Shown here: positions 1,659 through 28,494 of the stretch, one piece after another
Layout of the letters: every line of letters starts with the position of its first letter
Numbering within the stretch: the stretch's first letter is position 1
From: Candidatus Methanoperedens sp.
GTDB taxonomy: Archaea > Halobacteriota > Methanosarcinia > Methanosarcinales > Methanoperedenaceae
NCBI GenBank assembly: GCA_041494705.1
Contig: JBGQBI010000003.1
Location: forward strand, 150,001 to 182,000
Direction: 5' to 3'
DNA length: 32,000 nt
The notes under the pieces: model-generated
Database searches by the model: none
Seen by the model: only the letters and a program-made list of their open reading frames with translations
What the model was told of the DNA's origin: nothing
Made by a program: the position numbers and the translations under genes

Positions 1659-5091
<3,433 letters not shown>

Positions 5092-11383: not shown

Positions 11384-12172
11384 TTATTTTAACTTGAGTT
11401 TACTCCCATTAATGCAACCGGATAATAGTTCATCATTGCGTTTGGACAGCCTATTCCTGTCATAATATTTCAGTATTTTCATCCGGTAAAATACTGCCGT
11501 TGTATCGAACAGCATGTTCCATATGGCTTTCTTGTCCACATGGCTGCTAAAACCCATATTAAGCTCTATGGGTGATTCCACTATTTTATAGCCCATACGA
11601 TGGGCATTTGCCAGTATCTCGATATCAAAAGCGTAGCGTTTGACAAGTACCATTGGAAGCACATCTTCCAACACTTCTCTTTTATAAAGTTTCAAGCCGA
11701 CCTGTGTATCTTTTACAGGGATACCAAAAAGTGTTCTTACAAAAAGATAGTAAATGTCACTTAGTATTTTTCGCTGAAACGGATAACTAACTTTTGATTT
11801 TGGATGCCTTTTTGAACCCACGACAGCATCCGCATCATATTTTTTCATATATTCCATTAACCTGAGTATCTGTCCCGGGTGCAGGTTCATATCCGCATCA
11901 ATAAATGCAACCATATCGCCGCTTGCATACTGGAATCCGCGTTTTATGGCAAAGCCCTTTCCCTGGTTGCCTCCATAATTAACAACCTGAATATTCTGGT
12001 TTTGCTTTGCGAATTCCTGCACTTTCTCAAGCGTACCATCAATGCTGCCATCATCTACAACGATTAGCTCGTGATTTATGCCATTTAAGGACGTGATACA
12101 TTCTTTAAGCGTTTCGAGAATAATTCCATTCTCATTGTATGCAGGGATTACAATTGATAATCTTTTTAGCAA
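11384..12172 (-). CDS. GT2 family glycosyltransferase (dolichyl-phosphate hexosyltransferase-like, soluble type)
   Basis: LSIVIPAYNE, VVDDGSIDGT and FIDADMN. TTG start at 12172 per the ORF track. Confidence 0.85.
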   Translation of the reverse strand: MLKRLSIVIPAYNENGIILETLKECITSLNGINHELIVVDDGSIDGTLEKVQEFAKQNQNIQVVNYGGNQGKGFAIKRGFQYASGDMVAFIDADMNLHPGQILRLMEYMKKYDADAVVGSKRHPKSKVSYPFQRKILSDIYYLFVRTLFGIPVKDTQVGLKLYKREVLEDVLPMVLVKRYAFDIEILANAHRMGYKIVESPIELNMGFSSHVDKKAIWNMLFDTTAVFYRMKILKYYDRNRLSKRNDELLSGCINGSKLKLK

Positions 12173-12256: not shown

Positions 12257-13516
12257 TTAGTTTCTCGGGGAATGTTTCCCAAATGCTATTATGCCCAATC
12301 CTATGAAAAGCATTATGAAGAGGATTGCCAGTATTTTGACGACAGTAAAGAGCGACTCATGAAATATGCTTAATAGTGAAATCTCAAGGAGAAGAATGGC
12401 TGTTGTTATATAAAGAAAACTGAAATTTTTAATAGCCATATTATACATAATCAGTATATAAGAAAGAGAGAAGAACATTAGAGCAATTCCCAAAATCCCA
12501 ATTATCCGGATTGCTTCGGCATATTCCTGCCCGAAAAGCATACCAACCACAAAAGTTGGAACAGCCCAATATGCTATTACCGCTATTAAGGAGAGCAGGC
12601 ATGTGTAAGCAAGACAGTTTTTCAGGACATTGATGGTAATTTCTTTCTTAATGTGCAATTCAGAGACCTTCGGGAACATGACAGTTGCAATAGGAGCGGT
12701 GACAAAGAATATAATTTTTGAAATCAGCGAAGCCGCTGAATAATATCCCGCTTCGGTAGCGCTGAAATAATGCTTTACAAGCACGACGTCTATATTCGAA
12801 ATTAGTGCTATAATGAGCGATGTGACAAATACCGGTAATGAATATTGCAGGATATCTCTATTCTGAATTTTAATTGACGCTTCCTTTAAAATGAACCGCA
12901 GAGGTACCAGTGCGAGTAGAAATGCGAGCAGCGTAGATACGAATAGAGCCAGCATTGTGCCGCTCACTCCCCATCCAATATAAATGAACACTATACTGAA
13001 TGCCAGTTTAAATGCCGCTCCAATGATGCCGTTCAATCCGGCCTGAGTGAAGTTTTGCAATCCTTGCAAAGCTCCTGTGGTCAATGGATATAGAGCCGAG
13101 ACAAGAAATATCAACCCGATAATGAAAATTGGAATCGTATCAGGAATTTTCAGGAAGGATGCGATTACGCCGCTGGCAAGGCTGATAAGAAGAAACCCTA
13201 TAAGTCCAAAGATAAAAAGTTTATTGATGGAATAAATCAACAAATATTTTATCTTTCCATATTCGTATTTTGCTTTGTATTCCGAGGTAAAAAGTGCAAT
13301 CGTAGTTATAATGGTACTGGCTGGGACAGATGTTATTATTAATATCGAAACAAGGGCGCTGAATTCCCCATAGCCTTCAGGTCCCAGCGCCCGTCCCACA
13401 TAGAGCTGGAAAAGGTACCCGAATACCCCGCTAATTATAGTAGTGATGAAGATAATGCTGCTGTGTTTTAACAGGTTGTTATCGGTTTTTAGAATGTTTG
13501 TTATTTTTTTTATCAT
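12257..13516 (-). CDS. MOP/Wzx-type oligosaccharide flippase (polysaccharide biosynthesis protein family)
   Basis: 419 aa, almost entirely hydrophobic helices (about 12 TM by eye) with the layout of Wzx/MATE-like exporters. Its ATG overlaps the upstream stop (ATGA at 13513-13516). Confidence 0.7.
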   Translation of the reverse strand: MIKKITNILKTDNNLLKHSSIIFITTIISGVFGYLFQLYVGRALGPEGYGEFSALVSILIITSVPASTIITTIALFTSEYKAKYEYGKIKYLLIYSINKLFIFGLIGFLLISLASGVIASFLKIPDTIPIFIIGLIFLVSALYPLTTGALQGLQNFTQAGLNGIIGAAFKLAFSIVFIYIGWGVSGTMLALFVSTLLAFLLALVPLRFILKEASIKIQNRDILQYSLPVFVTSLIIALISNIDVVLVKHYFSATEAGYYSAASLISKIIFFVTAPIATVMFPKVSELHIKKEITINVLKNCLAYTCLLSLIAVIAYWAVPTFVVGMLFGQEYAEAIRIIGILGIALMFFSLSYILIMYNMAIKNFSFLYITTAILLLEISLLSIFHESLFTVVKILAILFIMLFIGLGIIAFGKHSPRN

Positions 13517-15237
13517 TGAGGTCCTAAAACCAGTGTATCATTAAATTTTTTAACGATTTCGAATCCTGTGGTGTTGATATTTGTCCCCATCATATCTGTG
13601 TGCACTATTGCGTATTTAACCCCCATCTCTTTCAGTCTGTTAGCGCTTGTTTTATTGATTTCAGCAAGGCTTTTCATAATTTCCCCCGAGCCGCCGTTTA
13701 CCAATTTTTTCTTATGGATACGCTGGTAAAACAGATATCTTAAGTCCACAATTTCATCTTTGCTCGGGGAAACTACCACAGGATACTCTATAATTGTAAA
13801 CTCCCCATTCTGGCTCGCGAGCCAGTTATACTCTTGCGGAATTTTAATTTTGGTTGTATGGTATTCATATTCATGCTGTCCAAATGGAAAATTTTGTTCT
13901 GGTCTTTTTATCTGGCTTATATTGGATGGAATTGGTGCAAACTCAAATAAAATAATTAAAATTATTGAAATTACGAACAATGATTTCCATTTTTTTAGTT
14001 TCTCCTGTAAAAGATACTTGATACTTATCCCTGCTAATATCGATACGGACATCATTAATATGACATCAAATCTGGCAATTACCCGGAAAGATGGAGTAAT
14101 CTGGTAAAGTAAATAAGAAAGTGAGAATGGTATCTTCAGACTTCCGATGGGTAGATACGGAGGCAGCATAAAACCCAGCGCCAACAGGGCAAACAGGGTA
14201 AACAGGACAACAACATGGTGTTCCTCGGTTTTTTTGTTCTTAATAAACTTCAATACGGCATATGTTGCCAGAAATAAAGGAGCGAAGCCTATGTACAATA
14301 TCTGCTCGATAGGGTTGCTGCCATAGAGATGGGACAAAACAAATTCTTGAACATACTGCCCGAATACAGGATGGTACACAGGTGGAAGAAAGAAGTCCCA
14401 TGGTTTTGCTGAATAGACGAGAAGTTCGTATATATCACGTTTAGGTACTATTTGCTGGGACGAGAAAAGTGCCGGTTTAACAAAAAAGTAATAAACTGCG
14501 AGAGCTGTGCCTGCGAGGATGACTAATATGATGCCTGCGATTTTCAAATTTTTTCGGTTGAAGCATCGGGCAAAATTTCTTAAAATATATAACTTGGATG
14601 TATATGTTTTGTATAAAAAATAAATTATTATCAGGAGCAAGGTAAAAAACGCATAATACCAGTTAGAGAATAGTACGATTGCCAAAAAAATCCCGAAAAT
14701 AGCTGCATTTTTATAACTCCTATCCCTATCCAATTTTAACATGTATAGCAGGCAGAATGGAATCCACTGGATTTGAGCCAGTTCCCAGTGATCCATTGCC
14801 TGGGCGATGTGGTAAGGTGAAAAAGCGAATATTATGCTGGATATAAGAGAGGCAGATTTGTTTTTTATCAGATAATATGCCAGAGAATACATTCCTATGC
14901 CCGATAGTACAAAGGAGGACAGTATCAGAAAATTATAAGAAAAAACCTCACCGAATAATATTGAAAAAGGGAGAGATGATAAACTGATTATAGGGGTGAC
15001 AAGAGGTCGGTAAATCCCATCGGGAGCACCTACCATTGGCGAAAATAAAGGAGATGTGTTAAGCTCAACAATTGAGTACTTGAACCACCATATCCACCAT
15101 ATTACTCCAAAAGGGTCGCCTGGATACCCGTAAAAGCTCGTTGCCATGTTAAAGGCAACAGGATATGTAAATAAAATAGTTAAAATTATTAATATAACAG
15201 CTACGTAAAAGTAATGATTAACAAATTTCTTGACCAT
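13513..15237 (-). CDS. Polytopic membrane protein, GT-C-like (candidate lipid-linked-sugar glycosyltransferase/polymerase) with soluble C-terminal domain
   Basis: 574 aa. The N-terminal TM is followed by a loop, YGYPGDPFGVIWWIWW, then more than 10 TM helices. The C-terminal ~130 aa are hydrophilic (EYNWLASQNGEFTIIEYP..GVKYAIVHTD). Function is inferred from architecture only. Confidence 0.6.
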   Translation of the reverse strand: MVKKFVNHYFYVAVILIILTILFTYPVAFNMATSFYGYPGDPFGVIWWIWWFKYSIVELNTSPLFSPMVGAPDGIYRPLVTPIISLSSLPFSILFGEVFSYNFLILSSFVLSGIGMYSLAYYLIKNKSASLISSIIFAFSPYHIAQAMDHWELAQIQWIPFCLLYMLKLDRDRSYKNAAIFGIFLAIVLFSNWYYAFFTLLLIIIYFLYKTYTSKLYILRNFARCFNRKNLKIAGIILVILAGTALAVYYFFVKPALFSSQQIVPKRDIYELLVYSAKPWDFFLPPVYHPVFGQYVQEFVLSHLYGSNPIEQILYIGFAPLFLATYAVLKFIKNKKTEEHHVVVLFTLFALLALGFMLPPYLPIGSLKIPFSLSYLLYQITPSFRVIARFDVILMMSVSILAGISIKYLLQEKLKKWKSLFVISIILIILFEFAPIPSNISQIKRPEQNFPFGQHEYEYHTTKIKIPQEYNWLASQNGEFTIIEYPVVVSPSKDEIVDLRYLFYQRIHKKKLVNGGSGEIMKSLAEINKTSANRLKEMGVKYAIVHTDMMGTNINTTGFEIVKKFNDTLVLGPQ

Positions 15238-15246
15238 GATAGTCTT

Positions 15247-17493
15247 TTACCACTCTGTCGCATAGCTTCCCTTTTCAAAATGCTTCCTGACATATCTCAG
15301 GACTAAAATAACAAATAATAACCCGAGTATAAAAGATGCAACCGCACCATATAATCCTATAATTTCATAGCCTGCAACTACAAGCGATGAAAATATCATT
15401 ATTACAGACATTGTTTTTATTAAAAACATTACAACTGGAAAATCCTGCCGCTGGAATATCCAGTTTGCTTTTTCACTCTGCCCGATTAATCTCAGCCCAA
15501 CACCAAACACCAGCAAGAAATAAGCAAGTATAGCGGTACCCTCTGCATACGTTTGATTCAGCATGTGTATGAAAGGCGTTAAAGCAAGGACAAAAAGCGC
15601 TTCAAGAATAAATAGTGAAGATGCAGGTGTTTTTTCGAAAAGTTTTATTATAAAAGCACCAAAAGTTTGTACCGTAGTTTTATCTTCCCCTATCAGCCCG
15701 GGGATGAAATCGAAGAAACCTTCCTTTACCAGGATGTAGATTCCTGATATGATTATTATCAGGTAGAATAAAATCACACCGCTGAGTAGCCCTATAGCAT
15801 CGGATTTTCTCATGTTGAAATTTATTTTATTTTTCCCAGGAAGCGTGTCAGAGCTTATTGAATAGATACTCCACATTTCCTTTGTATCTGCAAATTCAAT
15901 ATTCTGCCTGTTCAATTCATTAAATAATGGAACCGTGTATGTTGTAGGATTATAGAATATCTGGTTTTCGCTCTTCTTTTCGGTCTGGACGGCATTTAAT
16001 GGTATCTCGTAGGTCTTTATGTTACGGGGATCATTTCTGATTTTCTCGGCGTTGACAAGACTAATTGATTCTCCAGACTGCACTGTTGTGGCGCCTATGT
16101 CCCCCTTGGCTATTGCCACAGCTATTGTGTCCATGTGCTTGTTTATGAAATTTTCATTAAAATCTATATGCAATAAAAACTCTGCTGTTGCGAAGGTGTT
16201 ATCATATGTAGCAGGTTTTTTGATGAGTATGGAATTGGTTCCGATGCCTGGTTTTTCTATATTTCCGGTTGTACTTTTTATTTCGGCATTGGTGATTGTT
16301 GCATCTTTTAGCGTTACTTCTGTCCAGTCGGAAGTTGTTTCGATGCGAAGCGGAAGGCTCCTCTCCATGTATTTATTTTCTTTAAGCTGGTCAAGTTCGA
16401 ATAATGGCTCTCTGGCTGCCTGGGAAGATAGGTTTCCAAGTTTAATGGCAAAAGTAACTGGTTCAGTTCCATTATATTTTCCCATATCGGCAAAATCCTG
16501 TGCGGCAAGATTTACCATTGTATATCCCGGGTCGTTTTTCATTATGGTAATACTGGCAGGATTATCGCTAACCCCAAAATCAACCATGTAACTGGCTTTC
16601 CTGTAGCTGTTACCGGGATGAGAGTAATTAAGGATTATAAAATCTGACCCAACTATTGATTCAATAAGGCTCTGGTTATCAATTTCTAAAGATTTTGCTT
16701 TTCTAAGATAAAGTCCTTTGAAATCTATTTCTGTTTTATTTGAGGTTGTTTCGATTACCAGTGGAATGTTTTTGAGGTTAAGGGATGCTGTCTGGTTATT
16801 TACCAGTACGGATTCCCCGATTGTTACCGTGGTCTCTCCGTTATCGGCTTTATCTATTGTAACAACCGGCATAGGATTATCAAGGGATATGTCCACAAGG
16901 AATTTTGCGCTTCCATAGCTCGTATCGTTTGACTCTATTTTCGCCAGTATTATGCTTTTTGTCCCGATGATTGGTTCCCGGAGCGTAGTACCTTTTATAT
17001 CAAGTATCTGTGCATTCCTGATAGTTGCGTCGTTTAACTCAAGCCTTGTCCAGTCAGAAGTAGTCTCTATCGTTACAGGTATCTGCAGTGGTTTTTTATT
17101 GTTTTTGTACTCTCCTATTTTATCAATGCTGACATCAGTTTCCCCATTATAATCTTTTGTAATTACAAGCTCGACATTTTCTTTAAATGTATCAAGTTCC
17201 AGTTCCATTCTGATAATATCTGGGGTGTTATTACTCTTGTACTTGTTAAGAATAATTCCCGTCGAATCAATTATTGGATTCTTCAACCCTTCTGTTTTAT
17301 CAAGTATTTTTGTGTCCTTTATCGAAGCACCATTAAAAGAAACCCGCGCCCAGTCGGAAGTGGTGGATATAGTTACAACTATCGATGACGTCTTTATTAC
17401 ACGCTCTTCACCTGCCGTCAAATTATCTACTGCGAAGTATAATGGAATTAAAAGAATAAACAGAAGGATTAAAATTAATATTTTTGCATTCAT
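15247..17493 (-). CDS. Uncharacterised surface/membrane protein: signal/anchor + 4 tandem repeat modules + C-terminal ~5-TM bundle
   Basis: 748 aa. The core (I/V)ETTSDWT(R/E)(L/V)xLxDATIxNAxI recurs around W48, W148, ~aa 255 (degenerate, ETTSNKTEIDF) and W390. The C-terminal ~180 aa contain about 5 hydrophobic helices. I recognise no family. Confidence 0.75.
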   Translation of the reverse strand: MNAKILILILLFILLIPLYFAVDNLTAGEERVIKTSSIVVTISTTSDWARVSFNGASIKDTKILDKTEGLKNPIIDSTGIILNKYKSNNTPDIIRMELELDTFKENVELVITKDYNGETDVSIDKIGEYKNNKKPLQIPVTIETTSDWTRLELNDATIRNAQILDIKGTTLREPIIGTKSIILAKIESNDTSYGSAKFLVDISLDNPMPVVTIDKADNGETTVTIGESVLVNNQTASLNLKNIPLVIETTSNKTEIDFKGLYLRKAKSLEIDNQSLIESIVGSDFIILNYSHPGNSYRKASYMVDFGVSDNPASITIMKNDPGYTMVNLAAQDFADMGKYNGTEPVTFAIKLGNLSSQAAREPLFELDQLKENKYMERSLPLRIETTSDWTEVTLKDATITNAEIKSTTGNIEKPGIGTNSILIKKPATYDNTFATAEFLLHIDFNENFINKHMDTIAVAIAKGDIGATTVQSGESISLVNAEKIRNDPRNIKTYEIPLNAVQTEKKSENQIFYNPTTYTVPLFNELNRQNIEFADTKEMWSIYSISSDTLPGKNKINFNMRKSDAIGLLSGVILFYLIIIISGIYILVKEGFFDFIPGLIGEDKTTVQTFGAFIIKLFEKTPASSLFILEALFVLALTPFIHMLNQTYAEGTAILAYFLLVFGVGLRLIGQSEKANWIFQRQDFPVVMFLIKTMSVIMIFSSLVVAGYEIIGLYGAVASFILGLLFVILVLRYVRKHFEKGSYATEW
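16158..17400 (-). repeat. Four tandem protein-level repeats (~100-135 codons each) within the 748-aa ORF
   Basis: Residual nucleotide similarity is visible around the W codons: gtccagtcggaagttgtttcgat (16322-), gtccagtcagaagtagtctctat (17048-), cccagtcggaagtggtggatat (17349-). Confidence 0.6.
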
Positions 17494-17500
17494 GTTTCCA

Positions 17501-18943
17501 TCATCCTCGGGTTTTGTGTGTTACTTCCTTAATTATTAATAAACATTTGGACTTAATGCGCTCACTCAGCATAAACAGTATAATGAAATATAGAACTCCC
17601 CCTGTCAAAACCGTTATAATCAAATTCCTGACCATTGCCTGCGGAAACATCTTTGAAAACACAAATACTATCAATCCCATCAACGCCGCTGAAAAGATTT
17701 CATAAGCAATGTCCTTAAAAGGGATTTTAATGTCCAGCATCCTGCAAACAACCTTCGTATTCCACACAAATGAGACAAGTATCGTAACCATAGTACCCAT
17801 AGCAGCTCCAACAAATCCGAAAAAATATACAAGCAGCAGTATCCCGAAAACATTTAAGATTGTGGTAAAAACATTGATTTTAAAAACAACATCCGGTAAA
17901 TCCATTCCTTCCAGTGTCCTCACAGATATCATCTGCATGGATTGAAACATGCGGGCAAGCATCAGGATTACCAGCACAAGATAACCCGCCTCAAAATCTT
18001 TTCCATAGATTGCCCCCAGCAAATTCTCCGAGATGACAAGCGTGCCAAAAAAAGCGGGAATAACCAGAAGCGGAGAGTAAACCAGACTTTCTGAAAAAAT
18101 GCTTGCGATTTCCTGTTTCTGGTTCCCGGATGAAAAATCGCTTATCTTCGGGTATATCGAACTTGAAATCGCCTGGCTGAGGAGCAAAAAAACGGCAGAA
18201 AGCCCCCACGCAACACCGTATATTCCCGCCTGTTGTTGAGTCAGGAACAACCCTATGATTACAATGCCGATCCATTCATATAAATAACCTCCGACAGCAT
18301 TGCCTGAAGAGAATTTTGAAAAAGCCAGAAGGCTATTAAAATGTGATTTTTTAGGTACCTTGAGTCCCGTATCTATAAGCCTTGAACCGATAAACAGCGA
18401 AATAAGTACGCCGATGCCCAGTCCTATGACCAGCCCGAAGATTTCAAATCCGAGCAGGATTAAAAATGACTGGAAAAGGACACGCAGGAATTGCTGGGCA
18501 AGATCAAATGCGCCCCCAATATCCACTTTCTGCTCGCCGTGAAGTATCTCCCTTATAATATCGGAAAATTGCGTTAACCCGAGTATCAGAATCAAGTAAT
18601 AAGAAAGTTCAGCGCCAATATAGCGATATACCTGACCGCGGAAAACCAATATTGCAAGTGCGCAGAGCGCAAAAACACCCAGCCTGAGCATCAGGGACGC
18701 CGTTGCAATCTCTGACTGCTGGACGCCCTCGCTGATTCTCTTGATTGTGGCTGCCTGCAGCCCCATGTTCGTGATAAGATTGAATACCGTGAGGACGGAC
18801 ATGAACAGGAAATAGATACCGAGTGTCTGTGCCCCAAGTTTGCGGGAAAAATAAACCATCCCGATAAAACTTATGATGGCTGTAATAACGCTGAAAATAA
18901 ACCATTTTAGGCTTGTCTTTGCAAGGCTCATTTCACTATTCAT
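17501..18943 (-). CDS. MOP/Wzx-type flippase (second copy, different sequence)
   Basis: 480 aa, about 12-14 TM helices with a MATE/polysaccharide-biosynthesis-protein-like layout. The start is ATG 18943 (8-nt overlap with the upstream gene) or ATG 18931. Confidence 0.75.
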   Translation of the reverse strand: MNSEMSLAKTSLKWFIFSVITAIISFIGMVYFSRKLGAQTLGIYFLFMSVLTVFNLITNMGLQAATIKRISEGVQQSEIATASLMLRLGVFALCALAILVFRGQVYRYIGAELSYYLILILGLTQFSDIIREILHGEQKVDIGGAFDLAQQFLRVLFQSFLILLGFEIFGLVIGLGIGVLISLFIGSRLIDTGLKVPKKSHFNSLLAFSKFSSGNAVGGYLYEWIGIVIIGLFLTQQQAGIYGVAWGLSAVFLLLSQAISSSIYPKISDFSSGNQKQEIASIFSESLVYSPLLVIPAFFGTLVISENLLGAIYGKDFEAGYLVLVILMLARMFQSMQMISVRTLEGMDLPDVVFKINVFTTILNVFGILLLVYFFGFVGAAMGTMVTILVSFVWNTKVVCRMLDIKIPFKDIAYEIFSAALMGLIVFVFSKMFPQAMVRNLIITVLTGGVLYFIILFMLSERIKSKCLLIIKEVTHKTRG

Positions 18944-24061: not shown

Positions 24062-26407
24062 TTAAACCAGATCTACCTTAATCTCCCGTCCTTCTTGAAC
24101 ATCCTGTTCACTGACTGAAACCTTTGTTGAGATATTTCCATTTTGAATAACATAATCACCTGACGCTCCTGTCCCGTACTTGCCGTCCAGCGTCGGGTAT
24201 GGGACTTTGATTTCATACCTGCCATTGCTGGAAGTTGTTTTCCAGGTATCTACTAAAGTTCTGCCCTGGTTTGTGACAATATTTAATGTAGCCTTAACTT
24301 CCCCATCGGCTGCCCTTCCTGAAATTGTAGCCCCGGGCACATATTCAAAAATTTTCACGTATTTTATATCCGGGCTCTTGATAGCAGTTGTACTTGATTC
24401 TAATATCAGGCGATAATGACCAAGCCCGTTCCCGTCAAAAACGTGAAGCTTTGATAACATGGTGTCAAAAAATTTCTTATTTTCGTTATTAACACTGCGT
24501 ATCTCGCCCACGTCCGAGACAGTCTTAATTTCATAATAATCCTCTGGTCTTTTGCCTGCCATCAATGCTATTGATTTAAATTTAAGTTTAAGCATCTGGG
24601 CATCTGTTATGATATAGCGGACGTTCCTTTTGCCAAGAATTTCATTTGCGGTTTTTTCATCCGGTTCTGTGAAAAATCGCGCAGCATCGTCAATGCCAGT
24701 CTGGAAATTGTTTGCTACAACGGGACGCCGGGCAATAAATAAAATCCAGTTCCCAGAATCCCACCAGCTCATTACACCGTATTCTGGGGTTTTATCCGGT
24801 GCATCATAGTAACTTGTGGGCTGGGAATTGTCTTTAAGCCACATATACGAATCGCGAAAATCCGGGTCTGGCGCTCCCACAGTGCCGCTTGCAAAGGATT
24901 TTATGACAAAAATATTCGAAATGGCAATAAGGAAAAGCAGGATTAAACTGATATTTAGAATTACACTTGAAGCGGAACCTGTCTCCCGCTGACCTTTTCT
25001 CCTTTTCCTGGAAACTGCAACATTTTTTTTTCCCTCAAACGGCTTCAACACACCAACAATAAAATATGCTGTAAAAATTGCATTGTTCACAGCAAAGAGA
25101 TAAATAAAACGCCTCTGCAGGACTGTAAGCACCAGGATAATTAAAGACCATGTTATTAAAAACACAGCTTCAGGCGGATACTTTTCCCGTCTGGTTTTAT
25201 AAATAAAATATATGAGAGCCAGTAATGCAATATAAAAGCTGAAACTGAAAGCATTCCAGACATTAGTAAGTGTGAACCCGCCTGAGGGGGTATTAAACAG
25301 GGGCACAGCCTCCTGGATAGTGGAAAGCACCCCTCCCCCCAAAAGATAACCTATCCCATCTGTTGCAGACAGGTAAAATTGCAGGGCAAAGATCTTAAGG
25401 GAGAAAACTCCTGTGCCAAATATCAACAATAATAATAGGGGATTATGCCACCATTTTTTGAATTGCAATTTTTGCATCGCAAAAAGCAGCACGCATAAGA
25501 AAAAAAAGACAGACAGGAATGCGACATGGAACATGGTAGGTAAATAGGAGATGATTTCAAATCCTGTTCCCCCGGATACGGCAACTGGCAGAATGATCAA
25601 AATGGAAACAAGGAATGTTATGCCACCCGTTAATAACAAATAAGCCGAACTTCGCCCGAACTTCCTGTCTATCACAAACTGGACAGGAATATAAAGTCCT
25701 ATGAGCCCTATGAAAATAGGAGCGCCGTCCCATGTGAATATCGAGAGCGCCAGTAATATGCCTGTAATTACGGGAAATAACAAATTTTTTAATAGGTTTG
25801 CCCTGAAATTGCCAAATGTTATATTGTTTTGCCGCATCCGTTTTATTGCAATGATGAAACACAGATAAGCCGCAGTGGAAAGCAGCGTCTCGGCGACATG
25901 ATGGTCTGTATATCCAAGAAAAGAAACATACACATGGGACGGGGTTATTGCAAAAATACCTGCGCTGATGAGCCCCGCGCGCCAGTCAAATATTTTTTCA
26001 GTAATTGCAAATACAAGCCACACTGTCAATACACCGAGCAACAGGGGGATAAGTGCCGCTGTCACTTCTATTGTATGGATTGAAGGGCTTCCTGCTCCTA
26101 TTAAAAGCGCAACTGCCGCAATAAACATATCATATAACGGCGCCCAGGTGATTTTTGAACCATACGGGAAATCAATATATGAATCAAACGAAAGGACTGA
26201 AGGGAAATGGGCGACTGCCGCAAAAATGCGCCGGATATGATAATAAGAATCTGCCCCGAGTATGGTTATATTCCCGCCTGAAAAAACAACCGGAAAAACC
26301 CATAATCTTACAGCAAGGGCAAGAAGCAAAATACCTGTGAGAATTTTGTACTTATTTTTTTCTATGAAGAGTGCACTCATAATAGCATCCCCTGAGAGGT
26401 CTAACAT
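24062..26407 (-). CDS. aglB: Archaeal oligosaccharyltransferase AglB (STT3 family)
   Basis: 781 aa with a 13-TM-like N-terminal domain. GADSYYHIRR (first-loop acidic motif) and GYTDHHVAE. The WWDxG motif reads WWDSG at nt 24752-24766. Soluble C-terminal domain. Alternative start ATG 26380. Confidence 0.9.
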   Translation of the reverse strand: MLDLSGDAIMSALFIEKNKYKILTGILLLALAVRLWVFPVVFSGGNITILGADSYYHIRRIFAAVAHFPSVLSFDSYIDFPYGSKITWAPLYDMFIAAVALLIGAGSPSIHTIEVTAALIPLLLGVLTVWLVFAITEKIFDWRAGLISAGIFAITPSHVYVSFLGYTDHHVAETLLSTAAYLCFIIAIKRMRQNNITFGNFRANLLKNLLFPVITGILLALSIFTWDGAPIFIGLIGLYIPVQFVIDRKFGRSSAYLLLTGGITFLVSILIILPVAVSGGTGFEIISYLPTMFHVAFLSVFFFLCVLLFAMQKLQFKKWWHNPLLLLLIFGTGVFSLKIFALQFYLSATDGIGYLLGGGVLSTIQEAVPLFNTPSGGFTLTNVWNAFSFSFYIALLALIYFIYKTRREKYPPEAVFLITWSLIILVLTVLQRRFIYLFAVNNAIFTAYFIVGVLKPFEGKKNVAVSRKRRKGQRETGSASSVILNISLILLFLIAISNIFVIKSFASGTVGAPDPDFRDSYMWLKDNSQPTSYYDAPDKTPEYGVMSWWDSGNWILFIARRPVVANNFQTGIDDAARFFTEPDEKTANEILGKRNVRYIITDAQMLKLKFKSIALMAGKRPEDYYEIKTVSDVGEIRSVNNENKKFFDTMLSKLHVFDGNGLGHYRLILESSTTAIKSPDIKYVKIFEYVPGATISGRAADGEVKATLNIVTNQGRTLVDTWKTTSSNGRYEIKVPYPTLDGKYGTGASGDYVIQNGNISTKVSVSEQDVQEGREIKVDLV

Positions 26408-26622: not shown

Positions 26623-28494
26623 ATGAAAATTAGAATATTATATATTTTAATAATATTGGGAATTGTAATAACATCTGCGACTGCAACTCCGGCTTTTGTG
26701 GAAGTCAGACCTCTTAACAGGACTGGCGTTCCTGCGGCATTTGCATCGAATACTTCCTTCTATTTCAATAATGAGAATATGGCGATACAAGTTCTTTTGA
26801 ATGAAAATGTCTCTAGATTCGGATTGGGATATGTCTCTGCTACATTTTCACCCCCTGGTTATTCTCAACAAACTGCTAATCTAACTTATCCTAATTCAAG
26901 TTCAGGTGGCAATTATACATATTATCTTAATTTTACTATACCGGGCAACGTCTCAAATAACATTGCCTCAGTAATAACAATTACAGCAGTTAATGGTTCT
27001 GGTGGAGGCGGAAATCCCGTGAACACAACCACGTTCGTAGCATTGATAAATATAAATCCTGAAGATAACGAGGTAGGGTTGAGAGCCACGGCTGTCGGCG
27101 CAACAAACTGGAGCACAATCCCGGATTACACAAACGTACAGAACCTCACATTTACAAAATACAACAGCAGCACGTTTGCATATAAACTCGGCAACGTGGA
27201 ATTCTTAGAAAACATAAATCTCGCCGACAATACCACAGCTACGGCGCTCCAGTCGTTTGGGACAAACATGAAAATGTCATCGACATATATGGATATGAAC
27301 TCTGCTCAGTCTGCTCTTGCTGCATTGAACAAACAAGCAAAGCTCTCAATGTATAATCTTAGCTCATTATTCGGTGGAATACGGGCAGGTATACTGGTAG
27401 ATGGAGTTCCTGCATACTACGCCAACGGGTCAACCAATGGAAGCAGTTCTATCAGTGGCGTGGACTGGAGCCCGGATAATAATACCATTAACTTCACGGC
27501 TGCACACTGGTCTAACGACTCGCTGCAAGACCAGAAAGCTCCAACCATAAGCAGTGTGGCGTCAAGTTCCGTAACTTCCAGCGGTGCAACCATTACATGG
27601 ACGACAGACCTGTTTGCCAATTCGCTCGTTAAATACGGCACCACATCGGGGATTGAAAACATGACCAACACGGCCACAGAGTCCTCAACAAGCACAAAAT
27701 CCCACAGCGTGACCCTGACTGGACTGTCAGCAAGCACCACATACTATTATTTTGTAAACAGCACCAACTCCATAAGCACAAACAGTAGCCAGAGTTCTCA
27801 GTCCAGTTTCACGACTTCTGCATCGGGCGGCGGCAGTAGCAGCGGCAGCACAGGTGGCGGAGGAGTGACCACATCGGAGCCTTCTGCTAACATAGCGAAA
27901 GCTGAGAGCTATGACAAGAGCCTCATAGCAAATACTCCAGTCACTTACACCTTCAAAGCGCCTGAACTCGGCGTATACGAAATAGCCGTCACAGGCAAAG
28001 AGAACGAAAACGGCATAGCCCTGAGGGTAGAGGTTCTTAAAGGCACGTCAAAACAGGTAACAGTCCAGGCGCCCGGAACTGTATATAAGAATATAAACAT
28101 CGTGACCGGTACAAAGAGAATGAAAGAAGCCCTGATAAGATTCAGGGTTGAGAACTCATGGCTCGGAAGCAACAGCCTTGCAGGCAGCGATGTAAAGATG
28201 CTCCATTGGGTCGGCAGCCAGTGGACGCAGCTTGAAACCGCACAAACGACAAAAGACGATACATATACATACTACGAGGCAAAGACAGTCTCCTTCTCGC
28301 CTTTCGCAATAAGCGGAATAAAAGGCGGCGTATTAGTGCCCACAGCAACGCCTGTGGTAACAGGAACCAAGGTTATGCCGACTGGTACGGGCACTCCATC
28401 TCCGGCGCCGACAAAGAAGGTACCAGCAGTTGAATTTGTCTTAACAATAGCCATACTTTCAGCGGCTTATCTGTCCGGCAGAATGAGAAGATGA
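26623..28494 (+). CDS. Secreted, sequon-rich surface (S-layer-associated) glycoprotein: signal peptide + FN3 + PGF-pre-PGF domain + C-terminal TM/basic anchor
   Basis: Signal-like N-terminus MKIRILYILIILGIVITSATA. FN3-like aa ~305-398 (APTISSVASSSVTSSGATITW..HSVTLTGLSASTTYYYFV). PGF-pre-PGF-like aa ~418-565 (..RVEVLKG..IRFRVENSWL..SFSPFAISG). T/P linker, then PAVEFVLTIAILSAAYLSGRMRR. Confidence 0.85.
   Translation: MKIRILYILIILGIVITSATATPAFVEVRPLNRTGVPAAFASNTSFYFNNENMAIQVLLNENVSRFGLGYVSATFSPPGYSQQTANLTYPNSSSGGNYTYYLNFTIPGNVSNNIASVITITAVNGSGGGGNPVNTTTFVALININPEDNEVGLRATAVGATNWSTIPDYTNVQNLTFTKYNSSTFAYKLGNVEFLENINLADNTTATALQSFGTNMKMSSTYMDMNSAQSALAALNKQAKLSMYNLSSLFGGIRAGILVDGVPAYYANGSTNGSSSISGVDWSPDNNTINFTAAHWSNDSLQDQKAPTISSVASSSVTSSGATITWTTDLFANSLVKYGTTSGIENMTNTATESSTSTKSHSVTLTGLSASTTYYYFVNSTNSISTNSSQSSQSSFTTSASGGGSSSGSTGGGGVTTSEPSANIAKAESYDKSLIANTPVTYTFKAPELGVYEIAVTGKENENGIALRVEVLKGTSKQVTVQAPGTVYKNINIVTGTKRMKEALIRFRVENSWLGSNSLAGSDVKMLHWVGSQWTQLETAQTTKDDTYTYYEAKTVSFSPFAISGIKGGVLVPTATPVVTGTKVMPTGTGTPSPAPTKKVPAVEFVLTIAILSAAYLSGRMRR

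What the first reader, a model, noticed from the sequence alone, without database searches (positions are those of the whole stretch)
15247..17493. 748-aa orphan protein: four tandem extracellular repeat modules on a C-terminal 5-TM bundle
Seen: an N-terminal signal/anchor is followed by four modules. Each opens with (P)xxIETTSDWTxxxLxDATIxNAxI..G..ILxK and is followed by a xITKDxNGETxVxI-like strand region. The Trp positions are 48, 148 and 390; the third module near aa 255 is degenerate. After a spacer come about five hydrophobic helices at the C-terminus. My manual count gives about nine N-x-S/T sequons in the extracellular part. Short nucleotide-level echoes remain around each W codon. I recognise no domain family. 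Inference: this is a surface-exposed repeat protein anchored by a polytopic C-terminal domain. It could be a glycan chain-length or assembly factor (a functional analogue of Wzz), a scaffold, or a glycoprotein substrate.
Basis: seen in the sequence. Interest (0 to 1): 0.62.

Follow-up and report, generated by a model that had tools for sequence, protein, structure and literature searches.

The report
Repeat-bearing partner of an AftD-like glycosyltransferase
This orphan 748-residue membrane protein of a methane-oxidising archaeon is most likely the non-catalytic half of a two-part, AftD-type membrane sugar transferase that decorates cell-surface glycans from outside the cell, which gives a rare, unnamed protein family a first testable role.

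Summary
The ORF (15247-17493, minus strand) encodes an N-terminal hydrophobic helix, four diverged ~100-125-aa beta-sandwich modules and five C-terminal TM helices. It has no Pfam, NCBIfam or PDB sequence match. The nine sequons are real but no more than composition predicts.

The family is tiny: about ten clusters among 1.84 billion representatives, in Methanoperedens, Methanothrix-like genomes and metagenomes. In 11 of 14 loci an AftD-like GT-C glycosyltransferase lies within two genes. Here it is the 574-aa neighbour, 9 nt downstream.

The first hairpin of the C-terminal bundle (TM2-TM3) is homologous to stand-alone 150-250-aa four-TM proteins. In 19 of 19 loci these sit by an AftD-like GT-C, a Wzx-type flippase and usually a Dol-P-sugar-synthase-like GT2. 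In one genome they are fused in frame to the GT-C, giving 11+1+4 TM helices, the layout of mycobacterial AftD.

The repeat module also occurs on GH99/WbsX-like and GT2 enzymes.

Best reading (0.58): the protein is a partner subunit equivalent to the C-terminal half of AftD (sugar-binding-type beta-sandwiches, TM12, four-helix bundle). A Wzz-like, adhesin or ribophorin-like role is less likely.

Unchecked AI notes from this scan report small partners of AftD-like enzymes on other DNA.

The parts
15247..17493 (-). Whole ORF, 748 aa (P0001)
   Evidence: Orthologues at 61-95% identity and distant homologues at 26-31% align end to end.
17416..17493 (-). Residues 1-26: N-terminal hydrophobic helix, either a signal peptide or an uncleaved signal anchor
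   Evidence: Hydropathy. AF2 helix 3-26. Moderately conserved across the family. Cleavage is not determinable here.
17089..17406 (-). Module 1 (residues 30-135), beta-sandwich, motif TISTTSDWA
   Evidence: pLDDT about 72-87
16774..17088 (-). Module 2 (residues 136-240), motif TIETTSDWT
16363..16773 (-). Module 3 (residues 241-377), degenerate motif IETTSNKT. It contains the only family-wide conserved sequon, N252, and ends in a low-confidence spacer at 358-375.
15979..16362 (-). Module 4 (residues 378-505), the best conserved copy (IETTSDWT...KGDIGxTTV...NxxxDPRN). It is the copy that matches modules on other proteins.
15808..15978 (-). Residues 506-562: linker with conserved YNP and LPG motifs, predicted with low confidence
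15724..15807 (-). TM1 (residues 563-590), leading from outside back into the membrane. By position it corresponds to AftD TM12.
   Evidence: AftD layout from bioRxiv 10.1101/2019.12.22.885152. The correspondence is inference.
15628..15723 (-). Residues 591-622: cytoplasmic loop between TM1 and the bundle
15280..15627 (-). Four-TM bundle (TM2-TM5, residues 623-738). The first hairpin carries the conserved motif SSxxIxEALxxLAxTPF...AxxxAILAYxLLVxGVxxR.
   Evidence: hhalign against the stand-alone four-TM family: 96.8%, E 2e-10 over 55 columns, with shuffled-column controls scoring at most 18.6 against 68.2. Reciprocal profile hit. The second hairpin shows no detectable sequence similarity.
13513..15237 (-). 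Neighbour, 574 aa: divergent AftD-like GT-C, the proposed catalytic partner. Its start lies 9 nt after the target's stop.
   Evidence: hhalign against PF11847-positive archaeal GT-Cs: 95.8%, E 7e-9 over 406 columns. Conserved directly downstream in L013 and L014. No direct Pfam hit.
17501..18943 (-). Wzx-type (MOP) flippase 1, ending 7 nt before the target's start
   Evidence: Pfam Polysacc_synt and Polysacc_synt_3. A 42%-identical orthologue lies directly upstream of the 29%-identical target homologues in L017, L018, L021, L022 and L052.
12257..13516 (-). Wzx-type flippase 2, overlapping the GT-C stop by 4 nt
   Evidence: Homologues lie in the small-four-TM/GT-C clusters.
11384..12172 (-). 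GT2 resembling polyprenyl-phosphate sugar synthases, the proposed maker of the lipid-linked donor
   Evidence: Best PDB matches are P. furiosus Dol-P-Man synthase 5MLZ (7e-22), ArnC and GtrB. Homologues at 47-52% identity lie in the small-four-TM clusters.
24062..26407 (-). AglB oligosaccharyltransferase at the head of the same-strand cluster (context)
   Evidence: Pfam STT3, AglB_core-like and AglB_L1

Best explanation
The protein is the non-catalytic partner of the AftD-like GT-C glycosyltransferase encoded 9 nt downstream. Together the two genes reproduce the layout of mycobacterial AftD, but split into two polypeptides. The 574-aa protein supplies the GT-C catalytic core. The 748-aa protein supplies the outward-facing beta-sandwich domains, one membrane-re-entry helix (the TM12 equivalent) and a four-helix membrane bundle (the TM13-16 equivalent).

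The pair would work in an extracytoplasmic 'three-component' glycosylation route. A GT2 loads a sugar onto dolichol phosphate in the cytoplasm. A Wzx-type flippase turns the loaded lipid outward. The GT-C then transfers the sugar to a surface glycan, probably an N-glycan or another S-layer-associated glycan given the aglB cluster.

Shown: the four-module and five-TM anatomy; homology of the first bundle hairpin to stand-alone four-TM proteins; the near-obligate adjacency, and occasional fusion, of those proteins and of this family with AftD-like GT-Cs; and occurrence of the repeat module on other glycan-active enzymes.

Inferred: physical docking of the bundle on the GT-C; equivalence to AftD TM12-16; and a role of the modules in holding or measuring the acceptor glycan, as CBMs do in AftD, EmbC and GT136.
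For: Anatomy.

Conserved order GT4-Wzx1-target-GT-C-Wzx2-GT2 in the window, L013 and L014. In other strains the gene directly after the target is a different AftD-like GT-C subtype: 927, 1032 or 1036 aa. Distant homologues (26-29% identity) have a roughly 1100-aa AftD-like GT-C tail-to-tail or overlapping (L017, L018, L021, L022, L052, L025) or two genes away (L019, L020). In total, 11 of 14 loci are linked.

The 574-aa neighbour is related to PF11847-positive GT-Cs (hhalign 95.8%, E 7e-9). The 1100-aa type is related to them too (99.7%, E 6e-26).

The TM2-TM3 hairpin is homologous to stand-alone four-TM proteins (hhalign 96.8%, E 2e-10, with clean shuffled controls; reciprocal profile hit). 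In 19 of 19 loci across several Methanosarcinia families, those proteins lie within two genes of an AftD-like GT-C, with a Wzx and usually a GT2_b homologue.

In L040 the GT-C and the four-TM protein form one 982-aa frame with 11+1+4 TM helices. In L030 and L043 a 2- or 8-nt indel separates them.

P0042 joins the hairpin to a domain 35% identical to the C-terminal domain of the 574-aa protein (E 2e-11). L050 encodes a 347-aa mini-version (anchor, one module, TM, bundle) between a GT-C and a Wzx next to aglB.

The AftD architecture (11 TM, periplasmic CBMs, TM12, a loop, then the TM13-16 bundle needed for function) comes from bioRxiv 10.1101/2019.12.22.885152.

Module 4 matches N-terminal domains of GH99/WbsX-like enzymes and of a double-GT2 enzyme (z 13-17). 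CBMs on GT-C enzymes bind the acceptor (PMC11127046). GT2_b resembles Dol-P-Man synthase, ArnC and GtrB. The archaeal AglD/AglR/AglS precedent is described in PMC3871713.
Against: No sequence or structural match to AftD TM12-16 was obtained. Profiles A2 and A3 find nothing in PDB. No AftD entry appears among the 50 Foldseek hits shown, and the TM bundle is modelled at only pLDDT 40-70.

Only the first hairpin of the bundle is demonstrably homologous to the stand-alone proteins; the second is not.

The 574-aa protein has no direct PF11847 hit, and its catalytic acid was not mapped.

Three family members (L015, L023, L024), all with two to four tandem copies of the four-TM unit, show no GT-C in the flanks available.

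The L040 fusion rests on a single MAG and could be an indel error.

Sugar binding by the modules is untested. One module-bearing protein (P0033) lacks a signal peptide, so the module is not strictly extracellular.

Gene order here (partner first, GT-C second) is the reverse of the domain order in AftD.
Confidence: 0.58

Rival explanations
1. Chain-length regulator or molecular ruler, a functional analogue of Wzz. The four-module rod would set how far or how long the adjacent GT-C extends a polymer.
For: The topology (N-terminal helix, ectodomain, C-terminal TMs) resembles a PCP in outline. Module number varies between relatives: one in L050, four here, and a partial extra copy in L024. AftD-type enzymes do extend polymers.
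Against: No Wzz/PCP Pfam signal at E<=10. The predicted fold is beta-sandwich, not a helical coiled coil. No Wzy-type polymerase lies in the block. Most GT-C partners are bare four-TM proteins with no ectodomain at all.
Confidence: 0.1
2. Surface structural glycoprotein or adhesin that is a substrate of the pathway rather than part of it, merely anchored by a polytopic tail.
For: Foldseek places the modules with Ig-like adhesin and pilin domains such as PrgB, MSCRAMMs and Als. The ectodomain has sequons, one of them family-wide.
Against: The membrane domain is the best conserved part and carries invariant polar residues, and it exists on its own beside GT-Cs. Sequons are not enriched. The distribution is patchy: 3 of 53 family genomes carry the full-length form. 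The module also occurs on enzymes. The Foldseek single-module hits are weak (E >= 5e-3).
Confidence: 0.12
3. The four-TM unit is itself a lipid-linked-sugar translocator or carrier-lipid binder, in the manner of GtrA, Rv3789 or ArnE/ArnF, here fused to an ectodomain.
For: It is a small four-TM protein encoded beside a GT-C and a polyprenyl-phosphate GT2, as gtrA is beside gtrB and gtrC. It has conserved intramembrane Ser, Glu and Arg residues.
Against: No GtrA (PF04138) or SMR signal at E<=1. Almost every cluster already has a Wzx-type flippase. A long, variable cytoplasmic loop splits the unit two-plus-two.
Confidence: 0.08
4. Ribophorin-I/Ost1-like accessory subunit of the AglB oligosaccharyltransferase.
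For: The gene lies in the aglB cluster. Foldseek lists OST subunit chains 8pn9_E, 6s7t_E, 6c26_1 and 8agb_E at E 3e-5 to 3e-3. Reading these chains as ribophorin I/Ost1 is from my own knowledge and is unverified.
Against: Foldseek probabilities are 0.15-0.33 and TM-scores 0.07-0.12, which is generic for tandem beta-sandwiches. No Pfam ribophorin hit. The conserved neighbour is the AftD-like GT-C, not AglB, and many homologous loci have no aglB nearby.
Confidence: 0.04

Closest known systems
Mycobacterial arabinofuranosyltransferase AftD (GT-C; Pfam PF11847; PDB 6W98/6WBX), specifically its C-terminal half: periplasmic CBM/beta-sandwich domains, TM12 and the TM13-16 four-helix bundle
   Same: The order of parts is the same: beta-sandwich ectodomains, one TM, a loop, then four TMs. 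It is associated with an AftD-like GT-C core. One natural archaeal fusion reproduces the 11+1+4 TM count.
   Different: Here the parts are split between two polypeptides, with the partner gene first. No sequence or fold match to AftD TM12-16 was obtained. AftD's bundle binds acyl carrier protein; from my own knowledge (not checked in this genome) archaea generally lack ACP, so the ligand, if any, must differ. The modules have no recognised CBM family.
Three-component extracytoplasmic glycosylation systems: GtrA/B/C, CsbB/YfhO, the GT136 system of Citrobacter (PMC11127046) and Haloferax AglD/AglR/AglS (PMC3871713)
   Same: All combine a polyprenyl-phosphate GT2, a flippase and a GT-C acting outside the membrane. 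In GT136, an Ig-like CBM on the GT-C binds the acceptor.
   Different: Those descriptions include no fourth membrane subunit. Here the CBM-like domains sit on a separate protein with its own conserved four-TM bundle.
Wzz / polysaccharide co-polymerases
   Same: A membrane-anchored ectodomain encoded in a glycan cluster.
   Different: Different fold and no sequence relation. The conserved partner is a GT-C, not Wzy.
Ig-like domains of Gram-positive and fungal adhesins and pilins (PrgB, ClfB/SdrC, Als, EbpB)
   Same: A tandem beta-sandwich fold by Foldseek.
   Different: About 8-12% identity and low TM-scores. No family assignment, no sorting signal of those proteins, and a different genomic context.

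Membership tests
AftD-type C-terminal module (CBM domains + TM12 + TM13-16 bundle) | Beta-sandwich ectodomains followed by one TM, a loop and four further TM helices, with the C-terminus in the cytoplasm | tested here: met
   Hydropathy, AF2 secondary structure and a positively charged tail. AftD layout.
AftD-type C-terminal module (CBM domains + TM12 + TM13-16 bundle) | Belongs to, or is encoded with, a PF11847-type GT-C core | tested here: met
   Adjacency in 11 of 14 family loci and 19 of 19 small-four-TM loci. In-frame fusion in L040. The 574-aa neighbour is related to PF11847-positive proteins by hhalign.
AftD-type C-terminal module (CBM domains + TM12 + TM13-16 bundle) | Sequence or structural similarity to AftD TM12-16 | tested here: inconclusive
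   No PDB sequence hit with single sequences or profiles. No AftD entry among the 50 Foldseek hits shown, but the bundle is modelled at low confidence.
AftD-type C-terminal module (CBM domains + TM12 + TM13-16 bundle) | The bundle binds ACP/4'-phosphopantetheine on the cytoplasmic face | not testable with these tools
   Needs biochemistry or a co-fold.
Wzz / polysaccharide co-polymerase (PF02706) | Wzz domain signature and a helical coiled-coil periplasmic domain between two TMs | tested here: not met
   No Pfam hit at E<=10. The ectodomain is predicted to be all-beta.
GtrA-like small flippase (PF04138) | GtrA profile match in a compact four-TM protein | tested here: not met
   No Pfam hit for the target (E<=10) or for three stand-alone four-TM proteins (E<=1).
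Ribophorin I / Ost1 | Ribophorin I profile match, and a specific fold match to the OST subunit | tested here: not met
   No Pfam hit. Foldseek probability 0.15-0.33 and TM-score about 0.1.
Recognised carbohydrate-binding module or Ig-like domain families (CBM_4_9, CARDB, PKD, Big, CnaB and others) | A profile match of a module to a curated family | tested here: not met
   No Pfam or NCBIfam hit. There is only fold-level likeness.
Recognised carbohydrate-binding module or Ig-like domain families (CBM_4_9, CARDB, PKD, Big, CnaB and others) | Demonstrated glycan binding | not testable with these tools
   Requires a binding assay with recombinant modules.

The most novel reading that the evidence does not exclude
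The four-helix membrane bundle that was described as unique to mycobacterial AftD may be an ancient, separable regulatory subunit of AftD-type enzymes, free-standing in archaea. From my own knowledge (not checked here), archaea generally lack acyl carrier protein. The bundle would then bind some other cytoplasmic ligand and couple the cell's metabolic state to sugar transfer outside the membrane. In this protein it would also be joined to a new sugar-binding-type domain family that positions the acceptor.
Probability: 0.15. Interest if true: 0.75.

Novelty: new variant of a known kind. Interest (0 to 1): 0.55.

Why it matters
AftD-like GT-C enzymes are widespread in archaea but unstudied there. 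The role of AftD's extra four-helix bundle is still unsettled even in mycobacteria. If the bundle exists in archaea as its own gene, sometimes carrying beta-sandwich repeats, it can be deleted, swapped or co-purified without touching the catalytic core. That makes its function directly testable. The finding also names two unannotated units: a roughly 125-aa 'TTSDW' beta-sandwich module shared with GH99/WbsX-like and GT2 enzymes, and a four-TM partner domain. Finally, it suggests how strain-variable surface glycans are built in the methane-oxidising Methanoperedens lineage.

Tried and rejected
- Pfam and NCBIfam scans of the target and the 574-aa neighbour, even at E<=10, gave nothing.
- PDB sequence searches with single sequences and with profiles A2 and A3 gave only chance-level hits.
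- Foldseek on the full-length model and on the module-4-plus-bundle model gave only generic Ig-like hits. No AftD hit was listed. The second model was worse in the membrane part (pLDDT 59 overall).
- A region-restricted word search with module 4 returned only close orthologues.
- Sequon enrichment as a sign of a dedicated glycoprotein is rejected: 8 observed against 7.9 +/- 2.5 expected.
- Homology of the second hairpin (TM4-TM5) to the stand-alone proteins was not detected.
- The 654-681-aa proteins in related clusters (CBM_4_9, or sub-threshold ConA-like/CARDB-like domains, plus about five C-terminal TMs) looked like relatives of the target by BLAST. hhalign shows no relation of their TM region (probability <1%). 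The BLAST hit came from an upstream extension of one ORF. They are architectural analogues only.
- I could not align the catalytic Asp of the 574-aa protein with the conserved Asp after TM1 of the 680-aa GT-Cs.
Full report
**1. What is there.**

The ORF at 15247-17493 on the minus strand is intact and encodes 748 aa. Hydropathy and an AlphaFold2 model built on 14 homologues agree on the layout (mean pLDDT 69; 72-87 in most of the ectodomain). The parts are:
- an N-terminal helix, residues 3-26;
- four all-beta domains;
- a poorly modelled linker, residues 506-562;
- five C-terminal helices at about 563-590, 623-645, 649-672, 684-712 and 714-738, followed by a basic tail.

The four modules are truly related. 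They span residues 30-135, 136-240, 241-377 and 378-505. Pairwise local alignment scores are 5.9 to 25 SD above shuffles. The 15 nt encoding T-T-S-D-W recur three times at 87-93% identity.

The nine sequons exist, but composition alone predicts 7.9 +/- 2.5. Only N252-x-T, in module 3, is kept in all ten diverse family members.

Nothing in Pfam, NCBIfam or the PDB sequence set matches.

**2. Organism and context.**

The genome is 2.06 Mb in 6 contigs and 99.5% complete. It falls in the same genus group as a record titled Candidatus Methanoperedens sp..

The window is one long same-strand glycan cluster, in this order:
- aglB, a GT2 and a GT4;
- an HEPN/nucleotidyltransferase pair;
- a GT4 and a Wzx-type flippase;
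- the target;
- a 574-aa polytopic orphan;
- a second Wzx-type flippase and two GT2s;
- a B12-radical-SAM enzyme and an epimerase;
- BrnT;
- a GT2, GDP-mannose dehydratase, a DegT enzyme, an epimerase, a second radical-SAM enzyme and two GT4s.

Gaps around the target are 7 and 9 nt. The 574-aa gene overlaps the next flippase by 4 nt.

**3. How rare the family is.**

Thirteen proteins were found among 5.8 billion. Among 1.84 billion representatives there were 37 hits, of which about ten are full length. Full-length copies occur in 3 of 53 genomes of the family and in 3 of 87 genomes of a second family in the class. They also occur in a Methanosaeta (Methanothrix) MAG and on metagenome contigs.

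Members at 26-31% identity align from end to end. Module 4 and the first membrane hairpin are the most conserved parts. Some members carry two to four tandem copies of the four-TM unit.

**4. The partner.**

In the window, L013 and L014 the order GT4-Wzx1-target-574aa-Wzx2-GT2 is kept. In three further strains the gene directly after the target is instead a 927-, 1032- or 1036-aa polytopic protein.

In distant homologues a roughly 1100-aa polytopic protein lies tail-to-tail (L017, L018, L021, L022, L052), overlaps the target's end (L025), or lies two genes away (L019, L020). A 42%-identical Wzx1 orthologue lies directly upstream in five of these loci.

All of these large proteins are AftD-like GT-Cs:
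- Related roughly 680-810-aa archaeal proteins reach the Pfam PF11847 gathering score (31-57 bits against 26).
- The 1100-aa type matches them by hhalign at 99.7% (E 6e-26).
- The 574-aa neighbour matches them at 95.8% (E 7e-9, 406 columns).

Overall, 11 of 14 family loci have such an enzyme within two genes. The three exceptions are the members with multiplied four-TM units.

**5. The C-terminal domain has a life of its own.**

A profile of the family also hit short ORFs in other genomes. These encode 150-250-aa proteins with two TM hairpins separated by a variable basic loop.

Their first hairpin is homologous to TM2-TM3 of the target. hhalign gives 96.8%, E 2e-10 and score 68, while 20 shuffled-column controls score at most 18.6. 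The reverse profile finds the target in all three genomes that carry it. The second hairpin is not detectably similar.

I examined 19 such loci across several families of the class. In every one, the small gene lies within two genes of an AftD-like GT-C. There is usually also a Wzx2-like flippase and a GT2 that is 47-52% identical to the window's GT2_b.

GT2_b is closest to the Pyrococcus dolichol-phosphate mannose synthase (5MLZ, 7e-22), ArnC and GtrB.

In one genome (L040) the GT-C and the four-TM protein are a single 982-aa frame with 11+1+4 predicted TM helices. In two sister genomes a 2- or 8-nt indel separates them.

P0042 joins the hairpin to a domain 35% identical to the outward-facing C-terminal domain of the 574-aa protein.

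L050 holds a 347-aa miniature of the target (anchor, one module, one TM, bundle). It sits between a GT-C and a flippase, next to aglB.

**6. Comparison with AftD.**

The AftD cryo-EM paper describes this layout:
- 11 TM helices form the GT-C fold;
- a large periplasmic part follows, with carbohydrate-binding modules;
- a single helix, TM12, re-enters the membrane;
- a loop leads to a separate four-helix bundle, TM13-16, which packs on TM8/9.

The bundle binds the phosphopantetheine arm of acyl carrier protein. It is needed for function and was called unique to AftD (bioRxiv 10.1101/2019.12.22.885152).

The target has the same order of parts after its own export helix: beta-sandwiches, one TM, a 32-residue cytoplasmic loop, then four TMs. 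The 574-aa neighbour has the core TM helices and a small outward-facing domain, but no C-terminal TM.

I therefore read the two genes as one AftD-type enzyme in two pieces. This equivalence is an inference from architecture and linkage. I found no direct sequence or fold match to AftD TM12-16.

**7. The modules.**

Foldseek places them among Ig-like beta-sandwiches. For the four-domain model the best hits are PrgB (4e-11), MSCRAMM and Als adhesins, and pilins. For a single module the best E-value is only 5e-3. TM-scores are low, so no family can be named.

Module 4 matches N-terminal domains of five GH99/WbsX-like enzymes, one double-GT2 enzyme and some membrane proteins (z 13-17). It is therefore a mobile domain that travels with glycan-active enzymes.

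Ig-like CBMs on GT-C enzymes (AftD, EmbC, GT136) bind the acceptor glycan (PMC11127046). Related clusters also encode analogous, but not demonstrably homologous, proteins that combine CBM_4_9 or ConA-like/CARDB-like ectodomains with about five C-terminal TMs.

A role in holding or spacing the acceptor is thus the most economical reading. It is untested.

**8. Mechanism proposed.**

- GT2_b makes a dolichol-phosphate sugar.
- A Wzx-type protein flips it to the outer face.
- The 574-aa GT-C transfers the sugar to a surface glycan.
- The target docks on the GT-C through its bundle and presents four beta-sandwich modules to the acceptor.

This parallels Haloferax AglD/AglR/AglS (PMC3871713) and bacterial three-component systems. 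The addition here is a fourth, separate subunit.

**9. Rivals.**

The alternatives are a Wzz-like ruler, an adhesin or substrate glycoprotein, a GtrA-like translocator, and a ribophorin-like AglB subunit. They are weighed in their own sections. None explains the stand-alone four-TM proteins and their tie to GT-Cs as well.

**10. Earlier notes of this scan.**

After I had reached this reading, a word search showed that other agents had noted small membrane partners of AftD-like enzymes in other genomes: a Daviesbacteria genome, actinobacteria and others. These are unchecked AI notes on different DNA and add no independent support. They do suggest the theme is broader than archaea.

**11. Limits.**

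- The membrane part of both models has low confidence.
- The loci are related to one another, so the counts are not independent events.

Noticed in passing
L040:1940-4888 (G008:C3), compared with L043:3092-6032 and L030:164-3098: An AftD-like GT-C and a small four-TM protein form one 982-aa frame in one genome. In two sister genomes a 2- or 8-nt indel in the linker splits them into two overlapping ORFs. This is either a natural fusion/fission or a MAG indel error.
   Followed up: partly
L023:534-3884; L024:233-2935; L015:9992-12496; P0015: Some family members carry two to four tandem copies of the four-TM unit after the ectodomain. L024 also has a partial duplication of module 4. For the three examined at locus level (L015, L023, L024), no GT-C is visible in the flanks available; P0015 has no locus in hand.
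   Followed up: partly
L033:7816-8838; L035:7940-8521: The cytoplasmic loop of some stand-alone four-TM proteins consists of a pentapeptide repeat (I-P-H-I-N-like, with Pro every fifth residue).
   Followed up: no
L048:10131-12176; L051:1017-3062; L053:9753-11738; L049:5966-7930: In GT-C/Wzx/four-TM clusters of other Methanosarcinia, 654-681-aa proteins combine a signal peptide, a CBM_4_9 (above threshold in L049) or sub-threshold ConA-like and CARDB-like domains, and about five C-terminal TM helices. They are architectural analogues of the target, with no detectable homology in the TM part.
   Followed up: partly
window 26623-28494 (+); L030:6090-7517; L033:3-1580 and 2399-3799; L046:9091-10407: The 623-aa protein encoded divergently from aglB (with a purple-acid-phosphatase N-terminal-like domain) has homologues at 37-56% identity next to small-four-TM/GT-C clusters in three other genomes. 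It is a candidate acceptor glycoprotein.
   Followed up: no
L037:1681-5292; L054:1275-3572: Methanosarcinales-type S-layer proteins (PF07752, E 6e-52 and 1e-101) are encoded beside the hairpin/GT-C/Wzx genes in two genomes, hinting that the S-layer is the target of these systems.
   Followed up: no
L055:7-3462; L013:604-3972: In some Methanoperedens strains the AglB heading the same cluster is 1122-1151 aa. In L055 it carries a C-terminal PQQ-like beta-propeller extension that the window's 781-aa AglB lacks.
   Followed up: no
L016:3-533 (Thermoleophilia MAG); L027; L028: The TTSDW module also occurs in a bacterial (Thermoleophilia) MAG and on other metagenome proteins, so it is not restricted to archaea.
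   Followed up: no
   Followed up: no
window 15555-15557 (N646): A tenth sequon (N-Q-T) lies in the 3-4-residue outward turn between TM2 and TM3. It is present in only 3-4 homologues and is probably too close to the membrane to be used.
   Followed up: no
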